A stretch of 64,000 bases of DNA from an uncultured Candidatus Binatia bacterium (GCA_965215605.1 OZ244070.1:1888001-1952000); one strand, 5' to 3'; positions 12,775 to 23,916 are shown, counted from the stretch's first letter. Notes: generated from the letters alone by a model not told the origin. Program-made: numbers and translations.

Positions 12775-13080
12775 TCATCCTGTCGTGTGCAGCCCGCTGA
12801 CCGCGTCCAGGGTCGGCAGCCGGGCGATCGCTTGGCCGTTCTTCCGCTCCGCGAGCCGCAGCTCATAGAGCTTCCGGAGGTTGAGCCAGAACTCCCCGGA
12901 GGTGCCGAAGAAGCGCCCCAAGCGCAAGGCCGTGTCGCCGGTGATCGACCGTCGACCGTTGAGTATCTCCTTAATGCGGTTCACCGGCACCTCGATGCGC
13001 TGCGCCAATGCCGCGGCGCTCATGCCGAGGGCATCGAGATCCTCGCGCAGGGTTTCGCCCGGATGAATGGGTTCGCGCAT
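12775..13080 (-). CDS. higA: HigA-family antitoxin (no adjacent HigB)
   Basis: PIHPGETL, ITGDTALRLGRFFGTS.EFWLNL. Confidence 0.88.
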   Translation of the reverse strand: MREPIHPGETLREDLDALGMSAAALAQRIEVPVNRIKEILNGRRSITGDTALRLGRFFGTSGEFWLNLRKLYELRLAERKNGQAIARLPTLDAVSGLHTTG

Positions 13081-13096
13081 GACTTGCCTCCTCAAA

Positions 13097-13414
13097 TTAC
13101 GCAACTGCGCCCAGGCCGTTTTTCGCGACTACCGTCAGCAGTTTCAATGAGGCCCCCCGCGGTCGCTTCTCGCCGCGCTCCCACTGGCTCACCAGCCCCG
13201 TGGTCACGTTGAGGTAGCGCGCGAACACAGCCTGGCTCGCGTTTTCCCGAAGCCGCAGCGTCCGAATGTCCTCCGGCGACATCACCTCCACGGGCGTCAG
13301 GCACATCTCGTCGAACACACGCATGGTTTTCTTGGACATGACGCCGGCCTCCGCCAGACCGAGCGCCGCCTCGTGCGCGGCCGCCAGCGCCTCACTCTTG
13401 TACTGCTTGGTCAT
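13097..13414 (-). CDS. HTH XRE antitoxin/regulator
   Basis: KTMRVFDEMCL, SQAVFARYLNV..VSQWERGEKRP.GASLKLL. Confidence 0.88.
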   Translation of the reverse strand: MTKQYKSEALAAAHEAALGLAEAGVMSKKTMRVFDEMCLTPVEVMSPEDIRTLRLRENASQAVFARYLNVTTGLVSQWERGEKRPRGASLKLLTVVAKNGLGAVA

Positions 13415-13781
13415 CGCATTTCACCTCGGTAATCGCTCCAACCCTCTGCGCTGCGGCGAGGCCGGCTTGGTCCAGCGAAAGGTATTCGTCTGCCAGCAAC
13501 CGGAACGTCGCCAGCTCGTCCCGCCGCACATTATCCCGGTCGCTCTTGGCGAAGCCGTAGACGAAAAACGCCAGTTCGCCCCTGCGAAACAGCATGATCG
13601 TCCGGAACCCGCCGGAGCGGCCGCCACCCTTGCGGGCGATGCGCTGCTTGATGACGCCTCCGCCCAGGTCGGCATCTATCAGGCCTTTCCGAGCACGGCG
13701 AACCGCGTCGCACAGCGCATCGTCCTCCAGTCCCTCGCGGTTCGCGAAACGCGCGAACGCCTTGGTCTTGAACGTCTGCAA
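13392..13781 (-). CDS. RelE/ParE-family toxin (DUF1044-like)
   Basis: TTG start; FKTKAFARFA, DADLGGGVIKQRIAR..GRSGGFR, FVYGFAK. Confidence 0.85.
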   Translation of the reverse strand: MQTFKTKAFARFANREGLEDDALCDAVRRARKGLIDADLGGGVIKQRIARKGGGRSGGFRTIMLFRRGELAFFVYGFAKSDRDNVRRDELATFRLLADEYLSLDQAGLAAAQRVGAITEVKCDDQAVQE

Positions 13782-14112
13782 TCCTGACCCCGTGAGCGCC
13801 TGCCATCGGAGCCATTTTATAGCACTGAGTGTGTGCGATACCAATCTGGCTTCGGATGCAGGCGCGGTCTCCGCACGGTCGCCCTGTGGCTTTTGGGCAA
13901 CGCGGCTTCCACCCGCCAATTGCATCGCCGGAAAGGTTCGCCGACTCGTCCGCATCCGTATGGCCGTCGAAGCGACCTCGTCGGGCCTGCGGCCTGAGAT
14001 CGGCTGGCACCAGGAAGAGGGCGAGTCTGGCCGGAAGTAGGGCGGTGGTCGGCGCTCCGGGAGAGGAGTCCTGCCGCCGTTCCCTTTTACCCGACTCAAG
14101 GAGCACGGCACG

Positions 14113-14850
14113 ATGCAGGCGGCACTCGCACCGCGCGGCGACGCGCAGACCTTTCTTACCTATTTCGTCGGCGACGGCCTAGACGACGACCGCTACGTCA
14201 TTCAGCGCTACCTGTCCCGGGCCAACGGCGACATCTTCCCCGTCGACGCAGAAGGCGCCAAGCCGAAGGGTCGGCGCCGGCCTCGTCCGACCGTCGCCTC
14301 GTTGAAGAAGGTCGAGAACCCGCGTCCGGCCCGCGACGAAATCATCATCGCCACGGGAATCACACTGCGCCGCGCTGGCGAAGTCGTCTCCCTCGAATGG
14401 GATTGGATCAAGGGCAAACGCATCTTCCTTCCGGACTCCAAGTCCGGGCCGCGCACGGTCTGGCTGTCGAGCGCCGCCCGCGCGGTCATCGACGCCATCC
14501 CGCGCTACAGCCCCGATTGCCCGTTCCTGTTTCCGGCCCGTCCCCCGACGCGGCACATCGACAACTTCGAGTACCAGTGGCACCGCATCCGCAACGAGGC
14601 GGGTTTGCCCGGCTTGAGGCTTCATGACCTCCGCCACAACTGGGCTTCGGTCGCCGCCATGAACGGCGTGGACATGGTGACCATCGCCAAGCTGCTTGGT
14701 CATGCCCTCGTCGAGACCACGGAGCGTTACACCCATCTTTCCGACCAGACCGTTTCGCACGCCGCCGACCAGGTGTCGAACCGCATCCATGCGGCCTTGG
14801 CCGGAAGGGGCGCAGAGCAAGAGGGAGGAGACCGCCATGCCCACCGTTGA
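14113..14850 (+). pseudogene. Tyrosine integrase A, C-terminal catalytic part (N-terminus lost or chimeric)
   Basis: LPDSKSGPR, LRLHDLRH, KLLGH..TTERYTH. Confidence 0.8.
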
Positions 14851-15485
14851 CCTCACCCCGCGCCTGGCCCGCGAGAGCAAGCCCGGCTTCAGGGACACGT
14901 TCCTGTTTGACAAGACGCTGCCCGGCTTCGGGCTGCGCATCCACCCCTCGGGCCGGAAGGTCTGGATCGTGCAGGCCCGCATCGAGGGACGGAGCCGCCG
15001 CATCGTCATCGCACGGCACGCCGAGATGGAGATTGCAGAGGCCCGCCGCCGCGCCCGCGAGATCCTCGCTCGCATCCGCGCGGGCGAGGACCCCGCAGAC
15101 GACATCCAGAGAGAGAAGGAGACCGCGACCTTGGGGAGTTCGCGGACGAGTACCTGCGGCGCTCAGCGCCGCACTGGAAGCCGTCGGGGCGCAAGACCGT
15201 GCGCATCTACCTCAAGGCCCGCATCCTGCCCGCTTTCGGCAGGATGCCGCTTGACCGCATCGGCCCCGGGCACGTGGCCGCGTGGTTCGACGCGGCCAGC
15301 AAGGACAAGCCCGGCGCGGCCAACCGCGCCTTCGAGATTCTACGCTCGATGATGTTCCGGGCCGAGGAGTGGGGTTTGCTGGAGCGCAACAGCAATCCCT
15401 GTCTCGGCATCGCCAGGAACCCGGCGAAGCGCGTCGCCCGGTTCCTCGACGCCGGCGAGCTGGCGCGGCTAGGCCGCGCGCTCGA
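14837..15485 (+). pseudogene. Tyrosine integrase B, N-terminal Arm-DNA-binding and core part; frameshifted (~15130) and truncated
   Basis: FDKTLPGFGLRIHPSGRKVW..EARRRAREIL; PGAANRAFEILRSMMFRAEEWG..NPC; ends at the ankyrin cassette boundary. Confidence 0.8.
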
Positions 15486-16437
15486 CAGGCCGGTTATCCG
15501 TTTCTGGCAAGCCCTTGCGGGCTCAACGACCTCCGCCCCAGCACAGAAGAGCATCGTACAGGCTCCGCAAGGACGCGGGAGGAGTCCGCCCCTCGCATTT
15601 CCCCGAGCGTTCCCTGTTCATTCATCGGCCCCGTCCTCATCGCGCCCCGTGCGCTTTCAGTGTCCGGATCACTTCCTGAAAAGGTTTGACGCTCCCCTCT
15701 GTCTTTTCCATCCTGAGTCGGGCTAGGTCCAGAGGAGTGACTTTACCTTCGGCTCTCGCATTCACCTTCGCGCCAGCAGAGAGCAATGCCTTCACCGCTC
15801 CCGCTCGGCCATTGAGTGCCGCCCAGTGAAGGGGAGTCCTCTCATCTTTGGATTTGGCGTTCACCTTCGCGCCAGCAGAGAGCAATGCCTTCACCGCTCC
15901 CGCTCGGCCATTGAGTGCCGCCCAGTGAAGGGGAGTCCTCTCATCTTTGGATTTGGCGTTCACCTTCGCGCCAGCAGAGAGCAATGCCTTCACCACTCCC
16001 GCTTGGCCGTTGTCTGCCGCCCAGTGAAGGGGAGTCCACCCATCTTTGGATTTGGCGTTCACGTCCGCGCCAGCTGCGAGCAATGCCTTCACCGCTCCCG
16101 CTGGGCCATTGAGTGCCGCCCACTGAAGGGGCGTAAACCCATTTTTGTCTTTGGCGTTCACGTCCGCGCCAGCAGCGAGAAGTTCCCTGACGCGATGCTC
16201 GTCGCCCTGCCGCGCTGCGTCGTGGATCGGGGCCGCCATCAGGGCTGTTGGAGACCAAAGACACGCCAGCACAAGCACGGTCACCAATCGTCGAATCATC
16301 GCGTCTCCTCTGGATTCAGATAAATCTGCTTCCCAGTCGCATCGACGGGCAAAGCTCGATGGAACCTTATGCAATGGCACGCGGCCATGGGTCAAGGAAT
16401 CCGCCGGAGCGGCGCCTTCGAAGCGTTTCTTCCTCGC
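15486..16437 (-). repeat. Ankyrin cassette copy 1 (gene plus ~150-bp flanks)
   Basis: Flanks closely match 20302-22077 (caggccggt...cctcgc). Confidence 0.9.
15637..16299 (-). CDS. Secreted ankyrin-repeat protein (N-cap, 4 internal repeats, C-cap)
   Basis: RBS gaggaga, signal peptide, 99-bp TPLHWAAxxG..KALL.AGA.VNA repeats. Confidence 0.92.
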   Translation of the reverse strand: MIRRLVTVLVLACLWSPTALMAAPIHDAARQGDEHRVRELLAAGADVNAKDKNGFTPLQWAALNGPAGAVKALLAAGADVNAKSKDGWTPLHWAADNGQAGVVKALLSAGAKVNAKSKDERTPLHWAALNGRAGAVKALLSAGAKVNAKSKDERTPLHWAALNGRAGAVKALLSAGAKVNARAEGKVTPLDLARLRMEKTEGSVKPFQEVIRTLKAHGAR

Positions 16438-16677
16438 CCGGGATTGCGGACGCGCACATGGCGACGATCCATTCTATAACGCACGGCAACCGCGCCGCCT
16501 GGACTTCCGGCGCAGCGTCTTGCAAAGCCAGAATCCAGCGCTCACCATCCCGCAAGCATTCGCCTGCCGTGATGAACGTCCAATCCAAGTGTCGCGGGCT
16601 GTACTGCGTGGCGGTAGCGAGTGAAACTGCACCGCCGCACCAGCCCGAGCCGACAGCGCCGACGGCGCGGGCCTCGA

Positions 16678-16992
16678 TCATGCGCGCAGCGCCCCCACGC
16701 GCCGATCCGCAGCCGTCCGGTCGCGCCGCGCCCGCGCAAGCTCGTAGCTCGCCTGCATCCGCATCCAATGCTCGGCGGTGCCCCAGCCGATGTCCTCCAA
16801 CGCCAGCGCTATGTTCGCCGACACGCCAGCCTTGCCATTCAGCAGCCGCGACAGCGTTCCGCGCTCACAGCCGAGCCGTGCCGCCGTCTCGGTCACGTTC
16901 CAGCCCACATCGTCCATGCTCTCGCGGATGAGTTCGCCCAGGTGCGGCGGGTTCTGCATCGGGCCGACGCGATCGCTTGCGGTGTCGTTCAT
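16678..16992 (-). CDS. higA: HigA-family antitoxin
   Basis: NPPHLGELIRE..LSRLLNGKAGVS..WMRMQASY. Confidence 0.88.
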   Translation of the reverse strand: MNDTASDRVGPMQNPPHLGELIRESMDDVGWNVTETAARLGCERGTLSRLLNGKAGVSANIALALEDIGWGTAEHWMRMQASYELARARRDRTAADRRVGALRA

Positions 16993-17010
16993 GGTCAGCA
17001 CTCCCTCCGG

Positions 17011-17283
17011 TCAGTGGTAGTCGATCAGGTCCACGTCCACGGCCTCGCCGTCCTCGAATCGGAACACCACCCGCCAGTTGCCTGAGACGCGAACGCTCCA
17101 CTCGCCCGCGCGATCATCCTTGAGGGGATGCAGCCGGAAACCCGGCGCGTCGGCGCTGCCCGGATCCGTGGCCTCTTGCAGACGGAACAGGATACGCCGA
17201 AGCCGTGGCGCGAGACCGGCGGGAAGCCGCGCCGCGTCATCGCGCTCGTGCAGCGCCCGCAGCCCCTTGTGCCTGATCCTCAT
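17011..17283 (-). CDS. higB: HigB/RelE-like toxin
   Basis: RHKGL..PGFRLHPLK..WSVRVSGNWRVVFRF..DYH. Confidence 0.9.
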   Translation of the reverse strand: MRIRHKGLRALHERDDAARLPAGLAPRLRRILFRLQEATDPGSADAPGFRLHPLKDDRAGEWSVRVSGNWRVVFRFEDGEAVDVDLIDYH

Positions 17284-17290
17284 GATTCAC

Positions 17291-17309
17291 TGTAGCGCGC
17301 TGCGTTACA
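17291..17309. promoter_or_regulatory. Palindromic TA operator candidate
   Basis: tgtagcgc-gct-gcgttaca just upstream of higB. Confidence 0.5.
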
Positions 17310-17468
17310 CGCCTCAAGTGCTCGTCATGCCGTCCCGTCACGATGGCGCTCCACCCACCGGCCGTGTCGCTTGCCGTCCACAAAGGGGCCTTCTTCACCC
17401 GGTTTCGGCTCGTTGGACTTGCCGAAGGTCCTTGCAGGGCGCACGGTATTGCCGTATACCCGGACGGC

Positions 17469-17759
17469 ATGACCGTCCGCTCCATCCGTCACCGGGGCCT
17501 GCGCGAGCTGTTCGAGAACGACTCGCCCCGGCGGCTGAAGCAGGAGCTGGCGGAGCGGGTGCGCGGGATCGTGACGGCGCTCGCCCTAGCCGAGAACATG
17601 GAGGGCTTTGTCCGGGAGGCGGCGCCGGGTTGGCGCGTACATCGGCTGTCAGGCAGGCGACGCAACGAATGGAGCGTTTCGGTGTCCGCCAACTGGCGCA
17701 TCACCTTCGAGGAGCGGGACGGCGGGATCGAGCGTCTGAACCTGGAGGACTACCACTGA
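17469..17759 (+). CDS. higB: HigB/RelE-like toxin (second, divergent)
   Basis: RSIRHRGL..PGWRVHRLSG..WSVSVSANWRITF..EDYH. Confidence 0.9.
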   Translation: MTVRSIRHRGLRELFENDSPRRLKQELAERVRGIVTALALAENMEGFVREAAPGWRVHRLSGRRRNEWSVSVSANWRITFEERDGGIERLNLEDYH

Positions 17760-18064
17760 TGAGCAGAGACGGCATCAAGATGGGAATGACCCCTTCGCAC
17801 CCCGGAGCCTTCATCCGGTTAGAAGTGATCGAGGAGTTCGGGTTGAACATCACGGCGGCAGCGCGAATTCTCGGAGTGCGTCGGGCGACGCTCTCCGACT
17901 TGGTGAACGGCAACGCGTCGCTGTCGCCGGAGATGGCGCTGCGGGTGGAGAAGGCATTCGGCCTCAGCATGGACCTTTTGTTGCGGATGCAGGCATGGCA
18001 CGACGCGACGCGGATGCGGGCGCGCGCCGACGAGATCGACGTTCAGCGGTATCAGCTGGCATGA
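17759..18064 (+). CDS. higA: HigA-family antitoxin
   Basis: TGATG overlap; PSHPGAFIR..LSPEMALRVEKAFG..LLRMQAW. Confidence 0.9.
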   Translation: MSRDGIKMGMTPSHPGAFIRLEVIEEFGLNITAAARILGVRRATLSDLVNGNASLSPEMALRVEKAFGLSMDLLLRMQAWHDATRMRARADEIDVQRYQLA

Positions 18065-18302
18065 TCCGCTACGCGCACCGGCGCTCAATTGACGGACCCT
18101 GACCCCTGACCACTCCGGGGACTCTCGCCAAGGGCGTCAATTGGGCGCGGTGGTACGCTTGTCCCGGAAATGGAATGGCGCCTATTTGGTACCTGGCCAC
18201 CGAATTCTTCCTGCACCGCGCTTCTACACGCATCGTAACCTACCGAATTATAGTCATCAAATGACATCGGGCTTCCGACCGGACCTTGGGTACGGCTACA
18301 CC

Positions 18303-18561
18303 GACATGGTGCTGGGTCCACGGCGGCGGCCCCGGCGTCGAGCGCATCGCGGCAAGTTGGGCCGAGCAACGCGGCGTCCACTAGGTCGTGTGCAAGCCCG
18401 ACTGGGACCGCCACGGACGGGCCGCTCCGTTCCGCCGCAACGACGACCTCCTCAACCTCCTGCCCAAGGGCGTGATCGCGTTCCCCGGCAGCGGCATCAC
18501 CGACAACCTCGTCGACAAGGCAAGGCAGCTCGGCATCCCGGTCCAGAAGGTGGCTGCCTGA
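18303..18561 (+). pseudogene. DUF2493 (SLOG-like) protein C-terminal remnant
   Basis: DMVL/VHGGGPGVERIAASWA..H*VVCKPDWDRHGRAAPFRRND..IAFPGSGITDNLVDKARQLGIPV; contains a frameshift and an internal TAG. Confidence 0.75.
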
Positions 18562-18705
18562 GCCGCACGCAACAGGGGGTCGCGTCGCTTCGGCGGCGCG
18601 CCTCGGGTCGCTGGCGCTCCCTCCGCGCTCCGTCCGCCCACAAAACGGCGTGCCCCGTGTTTCATTCCAGGCGCGCCATGCCTGGCCGCGCATCCGACCC
18701 ACGAC

Positions 18706-19230
18706 TCGCCGCCTCCGGCAACGTGCTTCGCACGTATGCCATCGGCGACTTCAGCACTGACCGCCACTCGGTCGCCGCGGCGGTCCGCTGGTTTCCACGT
18801 CACCGGCGTTGCCGGTGACGCTACCCTGTCGAGCCGTTGCGCGGTCTCGCGCCTTCGATCGCTGGCGCTCCCGGTGTGCGCACGGCTCGCCGCCTTCGGC
18901 AGTGACCACCACTCAATCGCCATTGCCGCTGACGTGACCCTGTCGAACCCGGCTGCGCCAGCTCACCTATTCAGCACGGCATGCCTCGCCGCCTCCGGCG
19001 GCGTCGCTGCACTCATGCCGTCCGCCTCGCTGCGCTCGTCTTCGGCACACCCCCTCCGCATCCGCATCGCCCGTGCGGGCTCTGCCCATCACCGGCTTCC
19101 GCACTCCGCCGTCCTCGCTTTCCTCACCGCTGCGGACGCCACTGCCCGCGCTTCCGGCAGCGTGCTCCGCACGCCTGCCGGAAGCTCCGTCGACACTGAC
19201 TTCCACTCAGTCGCCGTGGCGGCTCCCTTC
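18706..19230 (+). repeat. Three imperfect dispersed direct repeats in non-coding, C-rich DNA
   Basis: cactgaccgccactcggtcgcc (~18755), cagtgaccaccactcaatcgcc (~18900), cactgacttccactcagtcgcc (~19194); each preceded by a gcctccggca-like motif. Confidence 0.6.
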
Positions 19231-19504
19231 TGCCGGCTTCGCCGGCGTCGTTCCCCCTTCGCTCATACCTCAGATTTTCCGTTCCTGACCGCATGGCGCG
19301 GGCTCTGGTATTCACACCCCACGCATCGGGGATGCCGTTCCGGTCAGTGTCCGCCATCACGCAATAGTGCGGAAACACACGTAGATTCAGAGCCTTACGG
19401 CTCACCTCGTCCCGCACCGCCAAGCGGCTTCCTCGAAAAACGCCGCCGCGACCGCTTCCTGTTCTGACCGCCGGTCGCGCGGCCCAACAAAGGAGCCGCA
19501 AGCC

Positions 19505-20170
19505 ATGACCGACGAATTCAAGTCCACCTTCGCCAAGCGCGTCCGCGCCGCCAAACCCCGCGCCAGGAAGTACGATGTCTGGGACGACGTGATCTCCGGC
19601 CTCGGCCTCCGCGTCGGCACCAGCGGAAATCGCTCGTTCTTCGTGCGCCGCAGCGTGCGCGGGCGCATCCGCTCCGCCACCATCGCCAGCGCCGACACCC
19701 TCACCGTGCCCGAGGCGCGGCGCGAGGCCCGCAGGCTCCTCGCCACCTTCCCGCATCGGCCCCGAGCACGTGGCCGCGTGGTTCGACGCTGCCAGCAAGG
19801 ACCGGCCCGCGCGTCGTCCCGCTCGGCGAAGCCGCGCGTGCGCACGTCGCGGCGCTGCCCGGCCTGCGCAACCCGGATGCCTGCCTGTTTCCCCGCCATG
19901 CCGAAGGCCGGGGGACGTACAGCCTTGAAAACTGCTGGCGGACGGTCTGCGAAGACGCCGGCCTCGGCCAACTGCGCCTGCACGACCTCCGCCATACCGC
20001 CGCGAGTCATGCCGTCATGTCGGGCGAAAGCCTGTTGCTGGTCGGGAAGCTGCTCGGGCACCGGCGCCACCGCACGACGGCAGGCTACGCGCACTTGGCC
20101 GACGCGCATCTTGTCGAGGCCGCGGAGAAGGTGGGGAAACTCATTGCCGGTTCCATGGACCTCCACCAGA
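19505..20170 (+). pseudogene. Collapsed tandem-integrase remnant (N-term Arm domain + short middle piece + catalytic C-terminus)
   Basis: YDVWDDVISGLGLRV; 19751-19807 matches 15255-15311; LRLHDLRHTAAS..KLLGH..TTAGYAH. Confidence 0.8.
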
Positions 20171-20301
20171 CGTCGTCTGACTCATGCGCACCTCGGGGCC
20201 ATGTGCCGGATTCTGCTTCAAACCCTCTATTACGCTCAGACCCCGTGTTCCTTGCGAGTCACGGCAGATGATTGATCCGTCATGGTTGCACGCCCTCAAG
20301 T

Positions 20302-22077
20302 CAGGCCGGTCATCCGTTTCTGGCAAGCCCTTGCGGGCCCCACGACCTCCGCCCCAGCACAGGAGAGCATCGTACAGGCTCCGCAAGGACGCGGAAGGAG
20401 TCCGCCCCTCGCATTTCCACGAGCATTTCCTGTCCATTCATCGGCCCCGTCCTCATCGCGCCCCGTGCGCTTTCAGCGTCCGGATCACTTCCTGAAAAGG
20501 TTTGACGCTCTCCTCTGTCTTTTCCCTCTCCTCTGTCTCTTCCATCCCGAGTCGGGCCAGGTCCAGAGGAGTGACTTTACCTTTGGCTCTCGCAAGGGAA
20601 GTCAGCCAGTTTTGGGCTTTGGCTTTGGCGTTCAGGTCCGCGCCTGCTGCTAGCAAGGCCTTCACCGCTCCTGCTCGGCCGTCGTGTGCCGCCCAATGAA
20701 GGGGAGTACCCCCTTCTTTGTCCTTGGCGTTCACGTCCGCGCCTGCAGCGAGCAAAGCCTTCACCGCTCCCGCGTGGCCTCTGTGTGCGGCCGCGTGAAG
20801 GGGAGTCCACCACTTGTCCTTGGCGTTCACGTCCGCGCCTGCAGCGAGCAAAGCCTTCACTGCTCCCGCTTGGCCCTCGAGTGCCGCCTGGTGAAGGGGA
20901 GTATCCCAGTCTTCGTCTTTGGCGTTCACGTCCGCGCCAGCAGCGAGCAAGGCCTTCACCACTCCCGCTTGGCCTTTGATTGCCGCCCAGTGAAGGGGAG
21001 TCCTCCCGTCTTTGTTCTTGGCGTTCACGTCCGCGCCAGCAGCGAGCAAGGCCTTCACCACTCCCGCTTGGCCTTTGATTGCCGCCCAGTGAAGGGGAGT
21101 CCTCCCGTCTTTGTTCTTGGCGTTCACGTCCGCGCCAGCAGCGAGCAAGGCCTCCGCCGCTCCCGCTTGACCATTGATTGCCGCCCAATGAAGGGGAGTC
21201 CACCCATCTTTGTCCTTGGCGTTCACGTCCGCGCGAGCAGCGAGCAAAGCCTCCGCCGCTCCCGCTTGACCATTGCTTGCCGCCCAATGAAGGGGAGTCC
21301 ACCCTGCTTTGGTTTTGGCGTTCACGTCCGCGCCAGCAGCGAGCAAGGCCTTCACCGCTCCCGCTCGGCCCTTGTGTGCCGCCCAGTGAAGGGGAGTCAC
21401 CCCGTCTTTGTCCTTGGCGTTCACATCCGCGCCAGCAGCGAGCAAGGCCTTCACCGCTCCCGCTTGGCCAACGCTTGCGGCCCAGTGAAGGGGAGTACCC
21501 CCATTTTTGTTCTTGGCGTTCACATCCGCGCCAGCAGCGAGCAAGGCCTTCACCACTTCCGCTTGGCCGGCCCAGTGAAGGGGAGTACCCCCATTTTTGT
21601 TCTTGGCGTTCACATCCGCGCCAGCAGCGAGCAAGGCCTTCACCACTTCCGCTTGGCCGGCCCGGTGAAGGGGAGTCCTCCCGTCTTTGTCCTTGGCGTT
21701 CACATCCGCGCGAGCAGCGAGCAAGGCCTTCACCGCTCCCGCGTGGCCCTTGAGTGCCGCCCAGTGAAGGGGAGTCAACCCATCTTTGTCCTTGGCGTTC
21801 ACGTCCGCGCCAGCAGCGAGAAGTTCCCTGACGCGATGCTCGTCGTCCTGCCGCGCTGCCTCGTGGATCGGGGCCGCCATCAGGGCTGTTGGACACCAAA
21901 GACAGGCCAGCACAAGCACTATCACCAATCGTCGAATCATCACGTCTCCTCTGGATTCAGATAAATCTGCTTCCCAGTCGCATCGACGGGCAAAGCCCGA
22001 TGGAACCTTATGCAATGGCACGCCGCCATGGGTCAAGGAATCCGACGGAGCGGCGCCTTCGCGCGTTTCCTCCTCGC
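20302..22077 (-). repeat. Ankyrin cassette copy 2
   Basis: Same flanks as copy 1; the 824-bp length difference matches the 825-bp CDS difference. Confidence 0.9.
20453..21940 (-). CDS. Secreted ankyrin-repeat protein (N-cap, 12 internal repeats, C-cap)
   Basis: Signal peptide nearly identical to copy 1; tandem 90-99-bp repeats. Confidence 0.93.
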   Translation of the reverse strand: MIRRLVIVLVLACLWCPTALMAAPIHEAARQDDEHRVRELLAAGADVNAKDKDGLTPLHWAALKGHAGAVKALLAARADVNAKDKDGRTPLHRAGQAEVVKALLAAGADVNAKNKNGGTPLHWAGQAEVVKALLAAGADVNAKNKNGGTPLHWAASVGQAGAVKALLAAGADVNAKDKDGVTPLHWAAHKGRAGAVKALLAAGADVNAKTKAGWTPLHWAASNGQAGAAEALLAARADVNAKDKDGWTPLHWAAINGQAGAAEALLAAGADVNAKNKDGRTPLHWAAIKGQAGVVKALLAAGADVNAKNKDGRTPLHWAAIKGQAGVVKALLAAGADVNAKDEDWDTPLHQAALEGQAGAVKALLAAGADVNAKDKWWTPLHAAAHRGHAGAVKALLAAGADVNAKDKEGGTPLHWAAHDGRAGAVKALLAAGADLNAKAKAQNWLTSLARAKGKVTPLDLARLGMEETEEREKTEESVKPFQEVIRTLKAHGAR

Positions 22078-22112
22078 TGTGAATGTTCCGGCCCGTGCGC
22101 GTGTCCGCGCCA

Positions 22113-22141
22113 TTGAATTGTTACCTTGTGCTTCCTATACT
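22113..22141 (+). promoter_or_regulatory. Sigma70-type promoter
   Basis: TTGAAT-N17-TATACT. Confidence 0.7.
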
Positions 22142-22147
22142 GACGCC

Positions 22148-22307
22148 CAGAAGCCGCGCGGCGGTTCGGGAAGTGTTCCCGCACATGCGCGGCGGACGCT
22201 GACGCTCAAGCGCCACTCGGGCTAACTGCCGAAGTCAGAACGGTTTGCACAGCCCAAGCGCTTGAGGGACGAGGAAGCCGCTCTTCGACGCCCTCCGGCG
22301 TTTTTTT
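22148..22307 (+). ncRNA. Candidate ~160-nt structured small RNA of unknown family
   Basis: Between the promoter and an intrinsic terminator (gacgcc-ctcc-ggcg-T7); several perfect stems; no credible ORF. Confidence 0.5.
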
Positions 22308-22489
22308 CCTCACACCCCACGCACCGATGGTGCCTTTTCCGCTGATGCCCGCGTTCGCATGAACGGACAGAAAGTTCGGTGACTACAGGGCCTTACTGCC
22401 CATCCCGTCCCGCGCCCCCGCGCGGCCCGCAGGCCGATCGCCAGCTACATCGAACCGGCAAAGACGGACAACGGACCTCGCACGCTAGG

Positions 22490-22633
22490 CCGCCCGATGG
22501 ACGCCTTCGCCGGAGAGTTCCTCGAACGCTACGCCCGGCACTGGAAGCCCTCCGGGCGCAGGACCGTGCGCATCTATCTCAAGGCCCGCATCCTGCCCGC
22601 GTTCGGCAGGATGCCGCTCGACCGCATCGGACC
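22490..22633 (+). pseudogene. Third tyrosine-integrase fragment, cut off at the IS3
   Basis: PMDAFAGEFLERYARHWKPSGRRTVRIYLKARILPAFGRMPLDRIG, nearly identical to 15170-15262. Confidence 0.75.
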
Positions 22634-22677
22634 CAGGTTGCTAAGGTGTATTCCACCGACTTAGGGAGGGATACGCA

Positions 22678-22958
22678 ATGAGCACACGACGAAGGTTCAG
22701 CGGAGAGTTCAAGGCGAAGGTGGCGCTGGAGGCGCTGCGGGGGACAAGACGATCCAGGAGATCGCTGTGCGGCACAAGGTTCATCCGAACCAGGTGAGCA
22801 CGTGGAAGCAGCGGGCGGTGGAGGGGATGAAGGAGGTTTTCACGAAGGGGGCGGAGCGGACGAGGGGCGACCACGAGGGGGAGATTCGGGACCTGCACGC
22901 GAAGATCGGGGAGCTGACGGTGGAGCGGGATTTTTTGGCCAAAGGGCTCAAGTGGTGA
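22678..22958 (+). pseudogene. IS3 OrfA, frameshifted in a G-run (~22740)
   Basis: MSTRRRFSGEFKAKVALEALRG / DKTIQEIA..VHPNQVSTWK..LHAKIGELTVERDFL. Confidence 0.75.
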
Positions 22959-23016
22959 GCCGGGAGAAGCGCCGGGGGATGATCGCGCCCGGCCGGGATG
23001 AGCCGGGAGAAGCGCC

Positions 23017-23916
23017 ATGATCGAGCCCGGCCATCCCAAGCTCAGCTTGAGCCGTCAATGCCATCTGCTTCGAGTGAGTCGATCCTCCGTGTACCACCGG
23101 CCCAAGGGCGAGAGCGCGGAGAATCTGGCGCTGATGCGCCGGATCGATGAGCTGTTCCTGGAGTACCCCTTCTACGGCAGCCGCCAGATGGTCCGCCATC
23201 TGTGGCGGGAGCGAGTCCGAGTGGGTCGTCACCGGGTGCGGCGTCTGATGCGCCTGATGGGTCTCCAGGCCATCTACCAGGCGCCGCGGACCACCCGACC
23301 GCACCCCGAGCACCGGGTCTACCCCTATCGGCTCAAGGGGGTCGCCATCGAACGGCCCAATCACGCGTGGACCTCCGACATCACCTATATCCCTGTCCAG
23401 AAGGGCTTCCTGTACCTGGTGGCGGTGATGGACTGGGCCACCCGCCGGGTGCTCTCCTGGAGGCTGTCGAACACCCTCGATGCCCGCTTCTGTGTCGAGG
23501 CCCTCTCAGAGGCTCTGGAACGCTACGGTCCTCCCGAGATCTTCAACACCGACCAGGGCAGCCAGTTCACCAGCCTGGAGTTCACCTCCGTGCTCAAGGA
23601 CGCCGGCGTCGCCATCTCCATGGACGGCAGGGGCCGGTGCATGGACAACATCTTCATCGAGCGCCTGTGGCGCTCCCTCAAGTACGAGGCCGTCTACCTG
23701 CACGAGCTCTCGGACGGCTTCGCCGCCCTGCGGGTCATCGCCCGGTGGGTGGCCTTCTACAACACCCAAAGGCCTCATTCCGCCCTCGCCGGCTCCACCC
23801 CGGCGGAGGCCTACGAACGAGGACTCCAGAGGCAGGCCGGACCTCACACCCCGCCCGCCCCTCTGCCAGTTCCATCGGAACACGAAGACGTGATAAACGG
23901 CACCTTGGCGGCATGA
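23017..23916 (+). CDS. IS3 OrfB DDE transposase
   Basis: WTSDITYI, FNTDQGSQF, DNIFIERLWRSLKYE, YNTQRPHSAL. Confidence 0.92.
   Translation: MIEPGHPKLSLSRQCHLLRVSRSSVYHRPKGESAENLALMRRIDELFLEYPFYGSRQMVRHLWRERVRVGRHRVRRLMRLMGLQAIYQAPRTTRPHPEHRVYPYRLKGVAIERPNHAWTSDITYIPVQKGFLYLVAVMDWATRRVLSWRLSNTLDARFCVEALSEALERYGPPEIFNTDQGSQFTSLEFTSVLKDAGVAISMDGRGRCMDNIFIERLWRSLKYEAVYLHELSDGFAALRVIARWVAFYNTQRPHSALAGSTPAEAYERGLQRQAGPHTPPAPLPVPSEHEDVINGTLAA

What the first reader, a model, noticed from the sequence alone, without database searches (positions are those of the whole stretch)
15486..22077. Natural DARPin-like library: one secreted ankyrin cassette in two versions, varying mainly at binding-surface positions
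Seen: the two cassettes share flanks, signal peptide, N-cap and C-cap but have 4 vs 12 internal 99-bp repeats, including near-identical neighbours and two 90-bp deletion variants. Framework codons are almost invariant (act ccc ctt cac, gcg gca). Variation clusters at x-TPLH-x-AA-x-x-G-x and the beta-turn, and the first AA-x codon is always NNC (ctc, agc, cac, atc, gac). Known: these largely coincide with the positions randomised in designed ankyrin binders. Inference: repeat shuffling or gene conversion plus diversifying selection builds a repertoire of secreted binders, spread by the adjacent integrases, possibly for host or phagocyte modulation.
Basis: partly seen in the sequence, partly recalled or inferred. 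Interest (0 to 1): 0.8.

Follow-up and report, generated by a model that had tools for sequence, protein, structure and literature searches.

The report
Hypervariable secreted ankyrin-repeat gene family
Two genes for exported ankyrin-repeat proteins, members of a larger family that sits beside worn-out integrase genes, keep an almost identical scaffold while seven surface positions per repeat change faster than silent sites, the mark of a fast-evolving set of binding proteins.

Summary
Genes A (window 15637-16299, minus strand, 220 aa, 4 internal units) and B (20453-21940, minus strand, 495 aa, 12 units) are 2 of at least 5 full-length paralogues, plus 3 degenerate pieces, in this genome. All share the 5' leader, signal peptide, caps and 3' flank. 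Each lies tail-to-tail with a P4/DUF4102-type tyrosine integrase, and most of these integrases are deletion remnants.

In 31 canonical 33-aa units, variation is concentrated at positions 1, 3, 5, 10, 13, 14 and 16. There pN is 0.44 against pS 0.20, a ratio of 2.2 (bootstrap 1.9-2.5). The other 26 codons give a ratio of 0.33. The same positions give ratios of 2.0-2.9 in four congeneric genomes.

No DGR was found: the only reverse-transcriptase hit is a 78-residue remnant, and variation is not adenine-specific.

Recent tandem unit duplications are seen in A and B. Repeat-number variation within the population could not be resolved.

The closest paradigms are the highly internally conserved ANK repeats of fungal NLRs, Wolbachia ANK genes and sponge 'ankyphage' ANKp. 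The binding target, including any host target, is inferred and not shown. I rate this a new member of a known kind.

The parts
14113..14850 (+). C-terminal (catalytic-domain) fragment of a tyrosine integrase; remnant of a separate integrase
   Evidence: Pfam PF00589, E = 6.1e-17; listed as C1:1902338-1902748.
14696..15487 (+). N-terminal two-thirds of the P4/DUF4102-type integrase that belongs to module A. It is spread over two frames, and its catalytic C-terminus is deleted.
   Evidence: Arm-DNA-bind_3, E = 4.6e-14. 93% nt identity to L025 7672-8648, with L025 7135-7671 missing.
15486..15636 (-). Shared 3' flank of the ANK cassette. The boundary lies at 15486-15492 in all seven copies.
   Evidence: blastn against the whole genome; family D3.
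15637..16299 (-). ANK gene A, 220 aa. Signal peptide 16234-16299; N-cap 16150-16233; four 99-bp units 15754-16149; C-cap 15640-15753; stop codon 15637-15639.
   Evidence: A Shine-Dalgarno-like GAGGAG lies 7 nt before the ATG.
16300..16629 (-). Conserved 5' leader/promoter region. About 140 nt are shared by all copies. About 330 nt are shared with copies D and E and with the G024 module (97%).
   Evidence: No Rfam family matches. No consensus sigma-70 site was found by the scan.
16678..17283 (-). HigA-like HTH antitoxin (16678-17001) and HigB-like toxin (17011-17283), lying between the two cassettes
   Evidence: Pfam PF13560 and PF05015.
17343..18064 (+). Second HigB-like toxin (17343-17759) followed by an HTH antitoxin
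   Evidence: Pfam PF05015 and PF01381.
19313..19517 (.). 206-nt segment found at the far (integrase-start) end of the module. It is also present at the F locus and in G024.
   Evidence: L025 8649-8854 matches C1:1907313-1907517 and C1:160891-161096 at 95-96%.
19505..20275 (+). Integrase remnant of module B. It has an Arm-domain start and the last ~135 codons. About 1.1 kb of the interior is deleted relative to the intact G024 gene.
   Evidence: Pfam PF13356. L025 7132-7537 matches window 19801-20206 at 96.8%. PF00589 hit at C1:1907810-1908106.
20291..20452 (-). Shared 3' flank of cassette B
20453..21940 (-). ANK gene B, 495 aa. Signal peptide 21875-21940; N-cap 21791-21874; twelve units 20588-21790; C-cap 20456-20587; stop codon 20453-20455. 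Units 2 and 3 are 90 bp, unit 10 is 96 bp and unit 12 is 135 bp. The C-cap holds an 18-bp tandem duplication at 20508-20543.
   Evidence: AlphaFold2 mean pLDDT 88.3, a continuous ANK solenoid.
21941..22077 (-). Conserved 5' leader of B, the same as in A
22084..22323 (.). Upstream segment shared with the F locus, with C1:1020600-1020821 and with G024 (L025 5393-5645)
22626..23916 (+). IS3-family insertion sequence (rve transposase 23017-23916). Its 75-nt end recurs about 12 times in the genome.
   Evidence: Pfam PF00665 and PF13276; repeated 22626-22700 matches.

Best explanation
**What it is.** A and B are two members of a lineage-specific multigene family of consensus-like ankyrin-repeat proteins. 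The family has at least 5 intact type-I genes in this genome.

**Export (inferred from the sequence).** Each type-I protein has a Sec-type signal peptide: MIRR, then a hydrophobic core, then ALMA|AP. This points to export to the periplasm or beyond.

**Mobile context.** Each gene is the single cargo gene of a small module of roughly 3.5 kb. The module consists of a 5' leader, the ANK gene and a convergent P4/DUF4102-type tyrosine integrase. It has landed at several chromosomal sites and is shared with sister species. Most integrases in this genome have since decayed.

**How the arrays evolve.**
- Shown: the 99-bp units multiply and shrink by unequal recombination. This keeps the scaffold codons nearly identical.
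- Shown: seven positions accumulate amino-acid replacements about twice as fast as silent changes. They are beta-hairpin positions 1, 3 and 5, inner-helix positions 10, 13 and 14, and turn position 16. They form the canonical ankyrin binding face.
- Interpretation: this is diversifying selection on binding specificity.
- The constant third base of codons 13 (NNC) and 10 (NNG) is what remains of the ancestral codon after repeated first- and second-position replacements. It is not a sign of templated mutagenesis.

**Function (inferred by analogy only).** The proteins bind changing external targets, most plausibly proteins of a eukaryotic host or grazer.
For: **Family size and shared parts.**

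**Ankyrin identity.** Pfam Ank/Ank_2 gives E = 1e-44 to 5e-167. The best PDB relatives are ankyrin-1 and DARPins. The AlphaFold2 model of B has pLDDT 88.3. In it, helix 1 covers unit positions 7-14 and helix 2 covers positions 17-25.

**Variation by position, 31 of 40 units of genes A-E.** Nine units with indels were left out.
- The entropy maxima fall at positions 5, 13, 3, 10, 14, 1 and 16.
- Hypervariable (hv) codons: pN 0.439, pS 0.189. Other codons: pN 0.066, pS 0.202.
- Nucleotide diversity at codon positions 1/2/3 is 0.467/0.527/0.106 in hv codons 1, 5, 10, 13 and 16. In scaffold codons it is 0.078/0.041/0.193.
- Unit pairs that differ at 1-3 of 78 scaffold nt differ at 7-12 of 21 hv nt.

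**Robustness of the ratio.**
- With random disjoint pairings, the ratio of hv pN to pS over all codons has median 2.19 (2.5-97.5%: 1.85-2.59).
- A bootstrap over units gives 1.90-2.53. Genes A+B alone give 2.37.
- The same pre-set positions give 2.03-2.94 in genes of G001, G019, G007 and G024, and 2.6 in own copy F.

**Recent tandem duplications.**

**Integrase linkage.**
- 7 of 7 own loci lie beside an integrase or its remnant.
- G024 has an intact 429-aa integrase.
- tblastn with that integrase hits 5 of the 14 related loci examined.

**Published analogues.**
- Secreted phage ANKp lowers phagocytosis (10.1101/608950, passages read).
- Fungal NLR ANK repeats combine concerted evolution, length polymorphism and positive selection on the concave face (PMC4986451, passages read).
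Against: **Caveats on the selection test.**
- The hv positions were chosen after seeing the data in the own genome, which inflates the own-genome ratio. The test in relatives reduces this problem but does not remove it, because those genes are kin.
- pN/pS between repeat units assumes that all codons of a unit share one history. Very short conversion tracts, or repeated homogenisation of the scaffold, could distort the ratio.
- In the nearest-pair test (ratio 3.9, 15 of 15 pairs) the pairs were picked by scaffold distance, so that figure is biased upward.

**Export.**
- No signal-peptide predictor was available, so export is read from the sequence alone.
- A second subfamily lacks the hydrophobic core and is probably not exported. 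Its members are own copies F and G, and genes in G001 and G019.

**Expression and habitat.**
- No expression evidence was found. The one RNA run laid covers only 20105-20383, outside the gene.
- Habitat and host association of the organism were not established here.

**Mobility and exchange.**
- The integrases next to A and B are broken.
- No long identical tracts link the paralogues (maximum 81 nt), so exchange between copies is not demonstrated.
Confidence: 0.7

Rival explanations
1. Relaxed constraint only. The seven positions are merely free to vary, the scaffold is kept uniform by recent duplication and purifying selection, and there is no selection for change.
For: - Exposed loop and helix-surface positions are the least constrained in every ankyrin family.
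- Positions 3 and 14 have high silent change as well (pS 0.60 and 0.77).
- Per-codon pS is very noisy.
Against: - Pooled hv pN (0.44) exceeds pS (0.19-0.20) with a bootstrap lower bound of 1.9.
- At codons 1, 5, 10, 13 and 16 the first and second bases are 4-5 times more diverse than the third base. Neutrality does not predict this.
- The excess is replicated in four other genomes.
Confidence: 0.12
2. The family is a weapon or shield in conflicts between mobile elements, phages and bacteria. For example, it could be a set of periplasmic binders of phage or competitor proteins. It would then not be a host-directed factor.
For: - The modules sit in islands full of toxin-antitoxin pairs and integrases.
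- In G024 the module lies beside an M78 peptidase, an AAA ATPase and a Cap17-like CBASS-type effector domain.
- Diversifying selection fits any arms race.
- A subfamily without a signal peptide exists.
Against: - PADLOC was not searched, so no known defence family was tested for or linked to these proteins.
- Exported consensus-like ANK proteins have experimental precedent in host interaction.
- Close relatives were not found on viral contigs. 7 of 14 candidate stretches there encode relatives, and all are <= 46% identical.
Confidence: 0.2
3. Templated hypermutation by a diversity-generating retroelement, or a similar targeted mutator, produces the NNC/NNG codons.
For: Codons that vary at bases 1-2 with a fixed third base resemble the AAC-to-NNC outcome of DGR mutagenesis (recalled knowledge).
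Against: - The whole assembly (97% complete) has one RVT_1 hit. It is a 78-residue N-terminal remnant fused in frame to a transporter, far from any ANK copy.
- Variation is not concentrated at adenines. The mean minor-allele count per column is A 3.3, T 5.8, G 2.8, C 2.9, and 9 of 21 majority-A columns are invariant.
- The commonest hv codons (CTC, TGG) contain no A.
- No template copy lies near an RT.
Confidence: 0.02
4. Assembly artefact. A single ANK locus was duplicated or mis-expanded by the assembler.
For: Tandem 99-bp repeats are error-prone. The repeat count of B was not verified by any spanning read.
Against: - A and B have different unit sequences and different outer flanks, and five further loci exist.
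- Short contigs from three runs of one study match B-specific stretches with 0 differences: 20544-20739, 21205-21334 and 21994-22182.
- Those runs may include the source sample, so this is weak independent support.
Confidence: 0.03

Closest known systems
Highly internally conserved (HIC) ANK/TPR/WD repeats of fungal NOD-like receptors (Podospora; Dyrka et al. 2014, PMC4986451, passages read)
   Same: - Near-identical repeat units and repeat-number change.
- A handful of codons under positive selection, located in the inner helix and beta-hairpin of the ANK repeat, which is the binding face.
- Several paralogues sharing the same unit type.
   Different: - No NACHT/NB-ARC or effector domain is present; these proteins are ANK-only.
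- They are bacterial, carry a signal peptide, and travel with an integrase.
- Concerted evolution between paralogues is not shown here.
Sponge 'ankyphage' ANKp and sponge-symbiont ankyrin proteins (Jahn et al. 2019, 10.1101/608950, passages read)
   Same: - Short ANK-only proteins with an N-terminal signal peptide.
- Carried by mobile DNA of uncultured bacteria.
   Different: - There are no phage structural genes around A or B, only integrase remnants, TA pairs and an IS.
- No relative above 46% identity occurs in IMG/VR.
- The effect on phagocytosis is untested.
- Hypervariable-codon analysis was not part of the passages I read in that work.
Wolbachia ANK gene families (Siozios et al. 2013, PMC3563639, passages read)
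   Same: - ANK gene families whose repeat number changes by recombination at direct repeats.
- Many are carried by prophages and exchanged between strains.
   Different: - The Wolbachia genes are diverse and are not built from one consensus-like unit.
- 'Signal peptide' and 'positive selection' do not occur in that paper's text (0 occurrences each).
Designed ankyrin repeat proteins (DARPins), e.g. PDB 6mol, 2qyj, 2xee
   Same: - Same 33-aa register and a consensus-like scaffold.
- phmmer E-values of 1.8e-108 to 7.9e-39.
- N- and C-capping repeats.
- Natural variation hits 4 of the 6 library positions (3, 5, 13, 14).
   Different: - Natural variation also uses positions 1, 10 and 16, which are constant across the DARPin R12 repeats in the alignment.
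- Natural variation hardly uses position 33.
- Helix 2 is alanine-rich here (AGAVKALLAAGA).
- Unit number runs from 1 to about 27 in the family.

Membership tests
Ankyrin repeat proteins (Pfam Ank, Ank_2) | Tandem ~33-residue units with the TPLH motif that score above the Pfam cut-offs | tested here: met
   Ank E = 1e-44 (A) and 3.5e-121 (B). Ank_2 E = 9.5e-41 and 5.2e-167. All are far above the cut-offs.
Ankyrin repeat proteins (Pfam Ank, Ank_2) | Helix-turn-helix plus beta-hairpin/loop units stacked into a solenoid | tested here: met
   The AlphaFold2 model of B has mean pLDDT 88.3 and paired helices in every unit. No fold search was run.
Diversity-generating retroelement target | A DGR-type reverse transcriptase in the genome | tested here: not met
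   There is one RVT_1 hit (31.7 bits, model positions 1-78). It is a remnant fused in frame to a transporter.
Diversity-generating retroelement target | A template repeat whose adenines correspond to the variable bases | tested here: not met
   Variation is not adenine-specific. No ANK-like copy lies near the RT remnant.
HIC repeat proteins of the fungal NLR type | High internal conservation of the repeats (85% identity over at least 100 aa in PMC4986451) | tested here: inconclusive
   TRF gives 92% (A) and 87% (B) matches at the DNA level. The paper's protein-level criterion was not computed.
HIC repeat proteins of the fungal NLR type | Positive selection at binding-face codons | tested here: met
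   The hv pN/pS is 2.2 (1.9-2.5), at positions in the hairpin and inner helix. This is a counting method, not a site model.
HIC repeat proteins of the fungal NLR type | Repeat-number polymorphism between alleles | tested here: inconclusive
   - Paralogues have 4 to 12 units.
- Alleles in the population could not be resolved.
- One relative's gene differs by one unit between metagenome contigs L111 and L112/L113. These are probably short-read assemblies.
HIC repeat proteins of the fungal NLR type | NOD (NACHT or NB-ARC) domain N-terminal to the repeats | tested here: not met
   Pfam finds only ANK families (plus one weak, sub-threshold SfsA_N hit in B) in A and B.
Ankyphage ANKp-like secreted phage ankyrins | N-terminal signal peptide and no transmembrane domain | tested here: inconclusive
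   The N-terminus has MIRR, a 10-residue hydrophobic core, a Pro and ALMA|AP, read by eye. No SignalP or TMHMM was available.
Ankyphage ANKp-like secreted phage ankyrins | Encoded on a phage genome | tested here: not met
   Neighbours are integrase remnants, TA pairs and an IS. The best IMG/VR relatives are <= 46% identical.
Ankyphage ANKp-like secreted phage ankyrins | Lowers phagocytosis or the immune response of eukaryotic cells | not testable with these tools
   This needs an experiment.

The most novel reading that the evidence does not exclude
The seven integrase-linked ANK loci act together as a bacterial binder repertoire. Intact, exported copies are the expressed set. Truncated or signal-less copies (F, Fc, G) and the near-identical 99-bp units serve as a reservoir. 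New unit combinations are assembled from this reservoir by recombination. This would resemble cassette-based antigenic variation or lamprey VLR assembly, and would give single lineages a rapidly changeable set of paratopes against host or phage targets.
Probability: 0.1. Interest if true: 0.85.

Novelty: new member of a known kind. Interest (0 to 1): 0.5.

Why it matters
Ankyrin proteins are among the most enriched 'eukaryote-like' genes of host-associated bacteria, yet their targets are almost all unknown.

This family marks its own binding face. Seven positions per repeat change faster than silent sites on an otherwise frozen, DARPin-like scaffold. It also offers dozens of natural variants for pull-downs or display experiments.

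It extends the 'conserved repeat scaffold plus hypervariable surface' pattern to a bacterial, exported, integrase-borne protein. That pattern is best described for fungal immune receptors. My literature searches found no description of such a pattern for bacterial symbiont ankyrins. Those searches cover open-access text only.

Tried and rejected
- **Repeat-number heterogeneity.** Only short Logan contigs (about 100-330 nt over the gene) were available from three DNA runs of one study, and none spans the array. One low-depth joint (20594 to 21330, depth 3, one contig) cannot be told apart from a paralogue. The question stays open.
- **Expression.** The single RNA run laid (a small-share holder) covers only 20105-20383. 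It says nothing about the ANK genes.
- **DGR.** Rejected.
- **RNA element in the conserved leader.** No Rfam hit at E <= 0.1. The consensus promoter scan found nothing. A TTGACC...CATAAG pair seen by eye is only a guess.
- **att direct repeats around the G024 module.** None was convincing.
- **tRNA integration sites.** No tRNA lies within 25 kb of copies A-F.
- **Recent gene conversion between paralogues.** No identical tract longer than 81 nt.
- **Close relatives in viral contigs.** None above 46% identity.
- **Near-identical alleles in JGI metagenome contigs.** None. The best are 61-67% identical.
- **Earlier scan notes by sequence.** Nothing.
- **Lipoprotein reading of Cys13.** Judged unlikely because the Cys lies too near the N-terminus for the usual lipobox rule. 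That rule is recalled, not tested.

Full report
**1. What is there**

The window lies at C1:1888001-1952000 of a 4.06-Mb assembly in 8 contigs, 97% complete.

There are two minus-strand ORFs with overwhelming ankyrin Pfam scores. The true start of each is the ATG of MIRRL. A GAGGAG Shine-Dalgarno-like motif lies 7 nt upstream.
- Gene A is 15637-16299 (220 aa).
- Gene B is 20453-21940 (495 aa).

Both have the same layout:
- A 22-residue N-terminus: MIRR, a hydrophobic core, a proline and ALMA|AP.
- An N-cap.
- Internal 33-aa units.
- A C-cap ending in SVKPFQEVIRTLKAHGAR.

A has 4 units and B has 12. B2 and B3 lack three residues of helix 1 (90 bp). B10 lacks one residue. B12 carries a 12-aa insertion.

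TRF independently reports 99-bp arrays of 4.2 and 12.4 copies and a 90-bp sub-array. A3/A4 differ at 3 of 99 nt and B8/B9 at 1 of 99 nt.

**2. It is a family, not a pair**

A search of the whole genome with A gives 21 matches. They resolve as follows:
- Five full-length type-I genes: A, B, C (C1:773038-774180), D (866496-868145) and E (3250430-3251287), with 4, 12, 7, 12 and 5 units.
- A divergent copy F (155002-156153) with a broken C-terminus.
- A C-terminal fragment Fc (158201-158581).
- A one-unit copy G (3647144-3647422).

F and G start MIRRLMMPLVRAVKTLL. They lack the hydrophobic core, as do intact genes in G001 and G019. This second subfamily is probably not exported. Three further ANK ORFs in the genome are unrelated.

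**3. Context: a small integrase-ANK module**

All seven loci share the 3' flank from window position 15486-15492 onward and about 140 nt of 5' leader. A, D and E share about 330-390 nt of leader.

In every locus the gene lies tail-to-tail with a tyrosine integrase or a piece of one. The sister genome G024 (locus L025) has an intact 429-aa integrase next to a 9-unit gene. That integrase carries Arm-DNA-bind_3, SAM-like and catalytic domains.

Relative to L025:
- The integrase beside A lacks its catalytic third.
- The integrase beside B lacks about 1.1 kb of its interior.

The G024 module spans roughly L025 5393-8854. It sits beside UbiD/ABC genes that are syntenic with the site of own copy G at 91.6% nt identity. 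Its flanks are 96-97% identical to those of own copies A and B. That is a few points above the neighbouring core genes. The difference is compatible with exchange between species but does not prove it.

tblastn with the G024 integrase hits 5 of the 14 related loci examined (L016, L017, L024, L025, L044). The other nine gave no integrase match. They comprise six metagenome contigs (L110-L115), L026 and two loci with about 1.5 kb of flank (L019, L020).

Around A and B lie two HigB/HigA pairs, a RelE-family pair, a further integrase fragment and an IS3 element. No tRNA lies within 25 kb of copies A-F.

The nearest named records are MAGs titled Candidatus Binatia and Thermodesulfobacteriota. 17 of 24 same-genus genomes searched have an ANK match at E <= 1e-20, against 1 of 5 and 1 of 11 in two other families of the order. 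That threshold also admits generic ankyrins.

**4. Where the variation is**

Of the 40 units in genes A-E, 31 have the canonical length and were compared. Nine units with indels were left out: B2, B3, B10, B12, C1, C4, C6, D5 and D8.

- Amino-acid entropy peaks at positions 5, 13, 3, 10, 14, 1 and 16, in the register D1...T6 P7 L8 H9...K33.
- Codon 13 uses nine codons, all NNC. Codon 10 uses seven, all NNG. Codons 1 and 5 are mostly NNC and NNG. Codon 16 is CNA in 29 of 31 units.
- Scaffold codons such as CCC-CTT (P7, L8), GCG (A17) and GTG (V30) are invariant.
- Pooled over the seven codons, pN is 0.439 and pS is 0.189. Over the other 26 codons, pN is 0.066 and pS is 0.202.
- In codons 1, 5, 10, 13 and 16, diversity at bases 1/2/3 is 0.467/0.527/0.106. 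This is the reverse of the scaffold, at 0.078/0.041/0.193.
- Pairs of units that differ at only 1-3 of 78 scaffold bases differ at 7-12 of the 21 hypervariable bases.

**5. Is it more than relaxed constraint?**

- With random disjoint pairings, the ratio of hypervariable pN to all-codon pS has median 2.19 (2.5-97.5%: 1.85-2.59). In 96% of pairs the former exceeds the latter.
- A bootstrap over units gives 1.90-2.53. A and B alone give 2.37.
- A nearest-pair version gives 3.9 with 15 of 15 pairs. There the pairs were chosen by scaffold distance, so I treat that figure as an upper bound.

The positions were chosen from these same data, so I applied them unchanged to genes in other genomes. The ratios were 2.0-2.1 in G001 and G019, 2.4 in G007, 2.8-2.9 in G024, and 2.6 in own copy F. 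In those genes the entropy maxima again fall mainly on positions 1-3, 5, 10, 13, 14 and 16.

These are counting estimates on paralogous repeats, not site models. They support diversifying selection but do not settle it.

**6. Where the positions lie**

In the AlphaFold2 model of B (mean pLDDT 88.3, single sequence), helix 1 covers unit positions 7-14 and helix 2 covers positions 17-25.
- Positions 10, 13 and 14 lie in the first (inner) helix. By their i, i+3, i+4 spacing they fall on one face of it.
- Position 16 is in the turn.
- Positions 1, 3 and 5 are in the hairpin loop.

Cocrystal structures identify this region as the ANK binding interface, according to PMC4986451 (passage read). I could not compute accessibilities because the coordinates are not returned.

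The 30-aa units keep high confidence with a 4-residue helix 1. The 12-aa insertion in B12 is poorly predicted.

**7. Comparison with DARPins**

The best PDB sequence matches include many DARPins. In the printed alignment of DARPin R12, the library positions 2, 3, 5, 13, 14, 26 and 33 differ between its repeats, while positions 1, 10 and 16 do not.

- Four of the six classical library positions (3, 5, 13, 14) are among the seven hypervariable ones here (P = 0.011).
- Position 2 ranks eighth. Position 33 is K or R only.

'Largely coincide' is therefore fair for the core of the paratope. The natural set also adds positions 1, 10 and 16.

**8. Mechanism of variation**

A DGR is excluded as far as the assembly allows.
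- The single RVT_1 hit is a 78-residue remnant fused in frame to a transporter.
- No ANK-like template lies near it.
- Variation is not adenine-specific.

The constant third bases are best read as ancestral bases retained while the first two bases were replaced. Most variants are one or two steps from CTC (position 13) and TGG (positions 5 and 10).

Unit gain and loss by unequal recombination is shown by 135-136-nt identical tracts at a 99-nt offset in A and in B and by the length variants. Recent exchange between paralogues is not shown, since the longest identical tract between genes is 81 nt. However, the nearest scaffold relatives of many units lie in other genes.

**9. Population data**

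- Three DNA runs of one study hold the locus. Contigs match B-specific stretches with no differences, but none spans the array.
- One contig in X1 is identical to B except that it lacks one copy of the 18-bp duplication at 20508-20543 (depth 16.6 of 61.3). This is a small length polymorphism in the C-cap.
- In a relative's gene, metagenome contigs L112 and L113 carry one unit more than L111 and G015. These are probably short-read assemblies, so this is only a hint.
- One family member has a 979-aa frame with about 27 units.

**10. Function**

The following are shown:
- The proteins are ANK-only solenoids.
- They have a variable putative binding face.
- Type-I copies have a Sec-like N-terminus.
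- The genome has two secretins, so an outer-membrane route is possible.

The following are inferred:
- Export.
- Binding to external targets.
- By analogy to sponge-phage ANKp, which lowers phagocytosis and cytokine responses (10.1101/608950), interaction with a eukaryotic host or grazer.

Earlier notes of this scan call other genes of this genome 'sponge-type'. I did not test that.

The island context is rich in defence and TA genes, and a signal-less subfamily exists. These keep a conflict-system role alive as a rival.

**11. Novelty**

- Repeat-number change by recombination and carriage on mobile elements are known for Wolbachia ANK genes (PMC3563639).
- The combination of a frozen scaffold, length polymorphism and positively selected binding-face codons is established for fungal NLR ANK/TPR/WD repeats (PMC4986451).
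- Secreted mobile ANKs of symbionts are also known.

My searches did not find this codon-level pattern described for a bacterial exported ANK family or for Binatia. One search found one paper with the terms 'ankyrin' and 'Binatota', which I did not read. Searches returned the fungal NLR papers and unrelated items. These searches cover open-access text only.

I therefore rate it a new member of a known kind, with a clean and usable signal.

Noticed in passing
C1:155002-156153, C1:158201-158581, C1:3647144-3647422; L016, L017: There is a second subfamily of the same ANK family whose N-terminus (MIRRL..PLV.AVKTLL) lacks the hydrophobic signal-peptide core. It is intact with 12-18 units in two sister genomes, and broken or reduced to one unit in this genome.
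   Followed up: partly
L025:77-5142: In sister genome G024 the integrase-ANK module lies next to three other genes: an IrrE/M78-like peptidase, an AAA ATPase and a protein with a Cap17-like ATP-nucleosidase N-domain (CBASS-type effector). This may be a defence island.
   Followed up: no
L026 (Gammaproteobacteria MAG, 1.83-Mb chromosome): A protein 49% identical to A has the same architecture, with a signal peptide ending in AMAAP and a C-cap with the PF.E.I..L.A.G.R motif. The organism is from another phylum, which hints at cross-phylum sharing.
   Followed up: no
window 16300-16437 and 21941-22077: About 140 nt upstream of the start codon are almost invariant in all copies and in G024. No Rfam family and no consensus promoter match. 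This could be a shared regulatory leader.
   Followed up: partly
window 20508-20543: An 18-bp tandem duplication in the C-cap of B adds EEREKT. One contig in run X1 lacks one copy (depth 16.6 of 61.3).
   Followed up: partly
C1:2721629-2721862 (L013): A 78-residue N-terminal piece of a group-II-intron-like reverse transcriptase is fused in frame to the start of an MMPL/RND-type transporter ORF.
   Followed up: partly
window 12775-14111 and 16678-18064: Three toxin-antitoxin pairs (a RelE-family toxin with an HTH partner, and two HigB/HigA pairs) are packed between integrase remnants. The region looks like a graveyard of integrative elements.
   Followed up: no
L112 (metagenome contig, 4050 nt): A family member has a 979-aa open frame and about 27 units. 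It differs by one unit from the same gene on contigs L111 and L018.
   Followed up: partly
window 22626-22700: A 75-nt end of the IS3 element recurs at about 12 other places on the chromosome at 85-97% identity.
   Followed up: no
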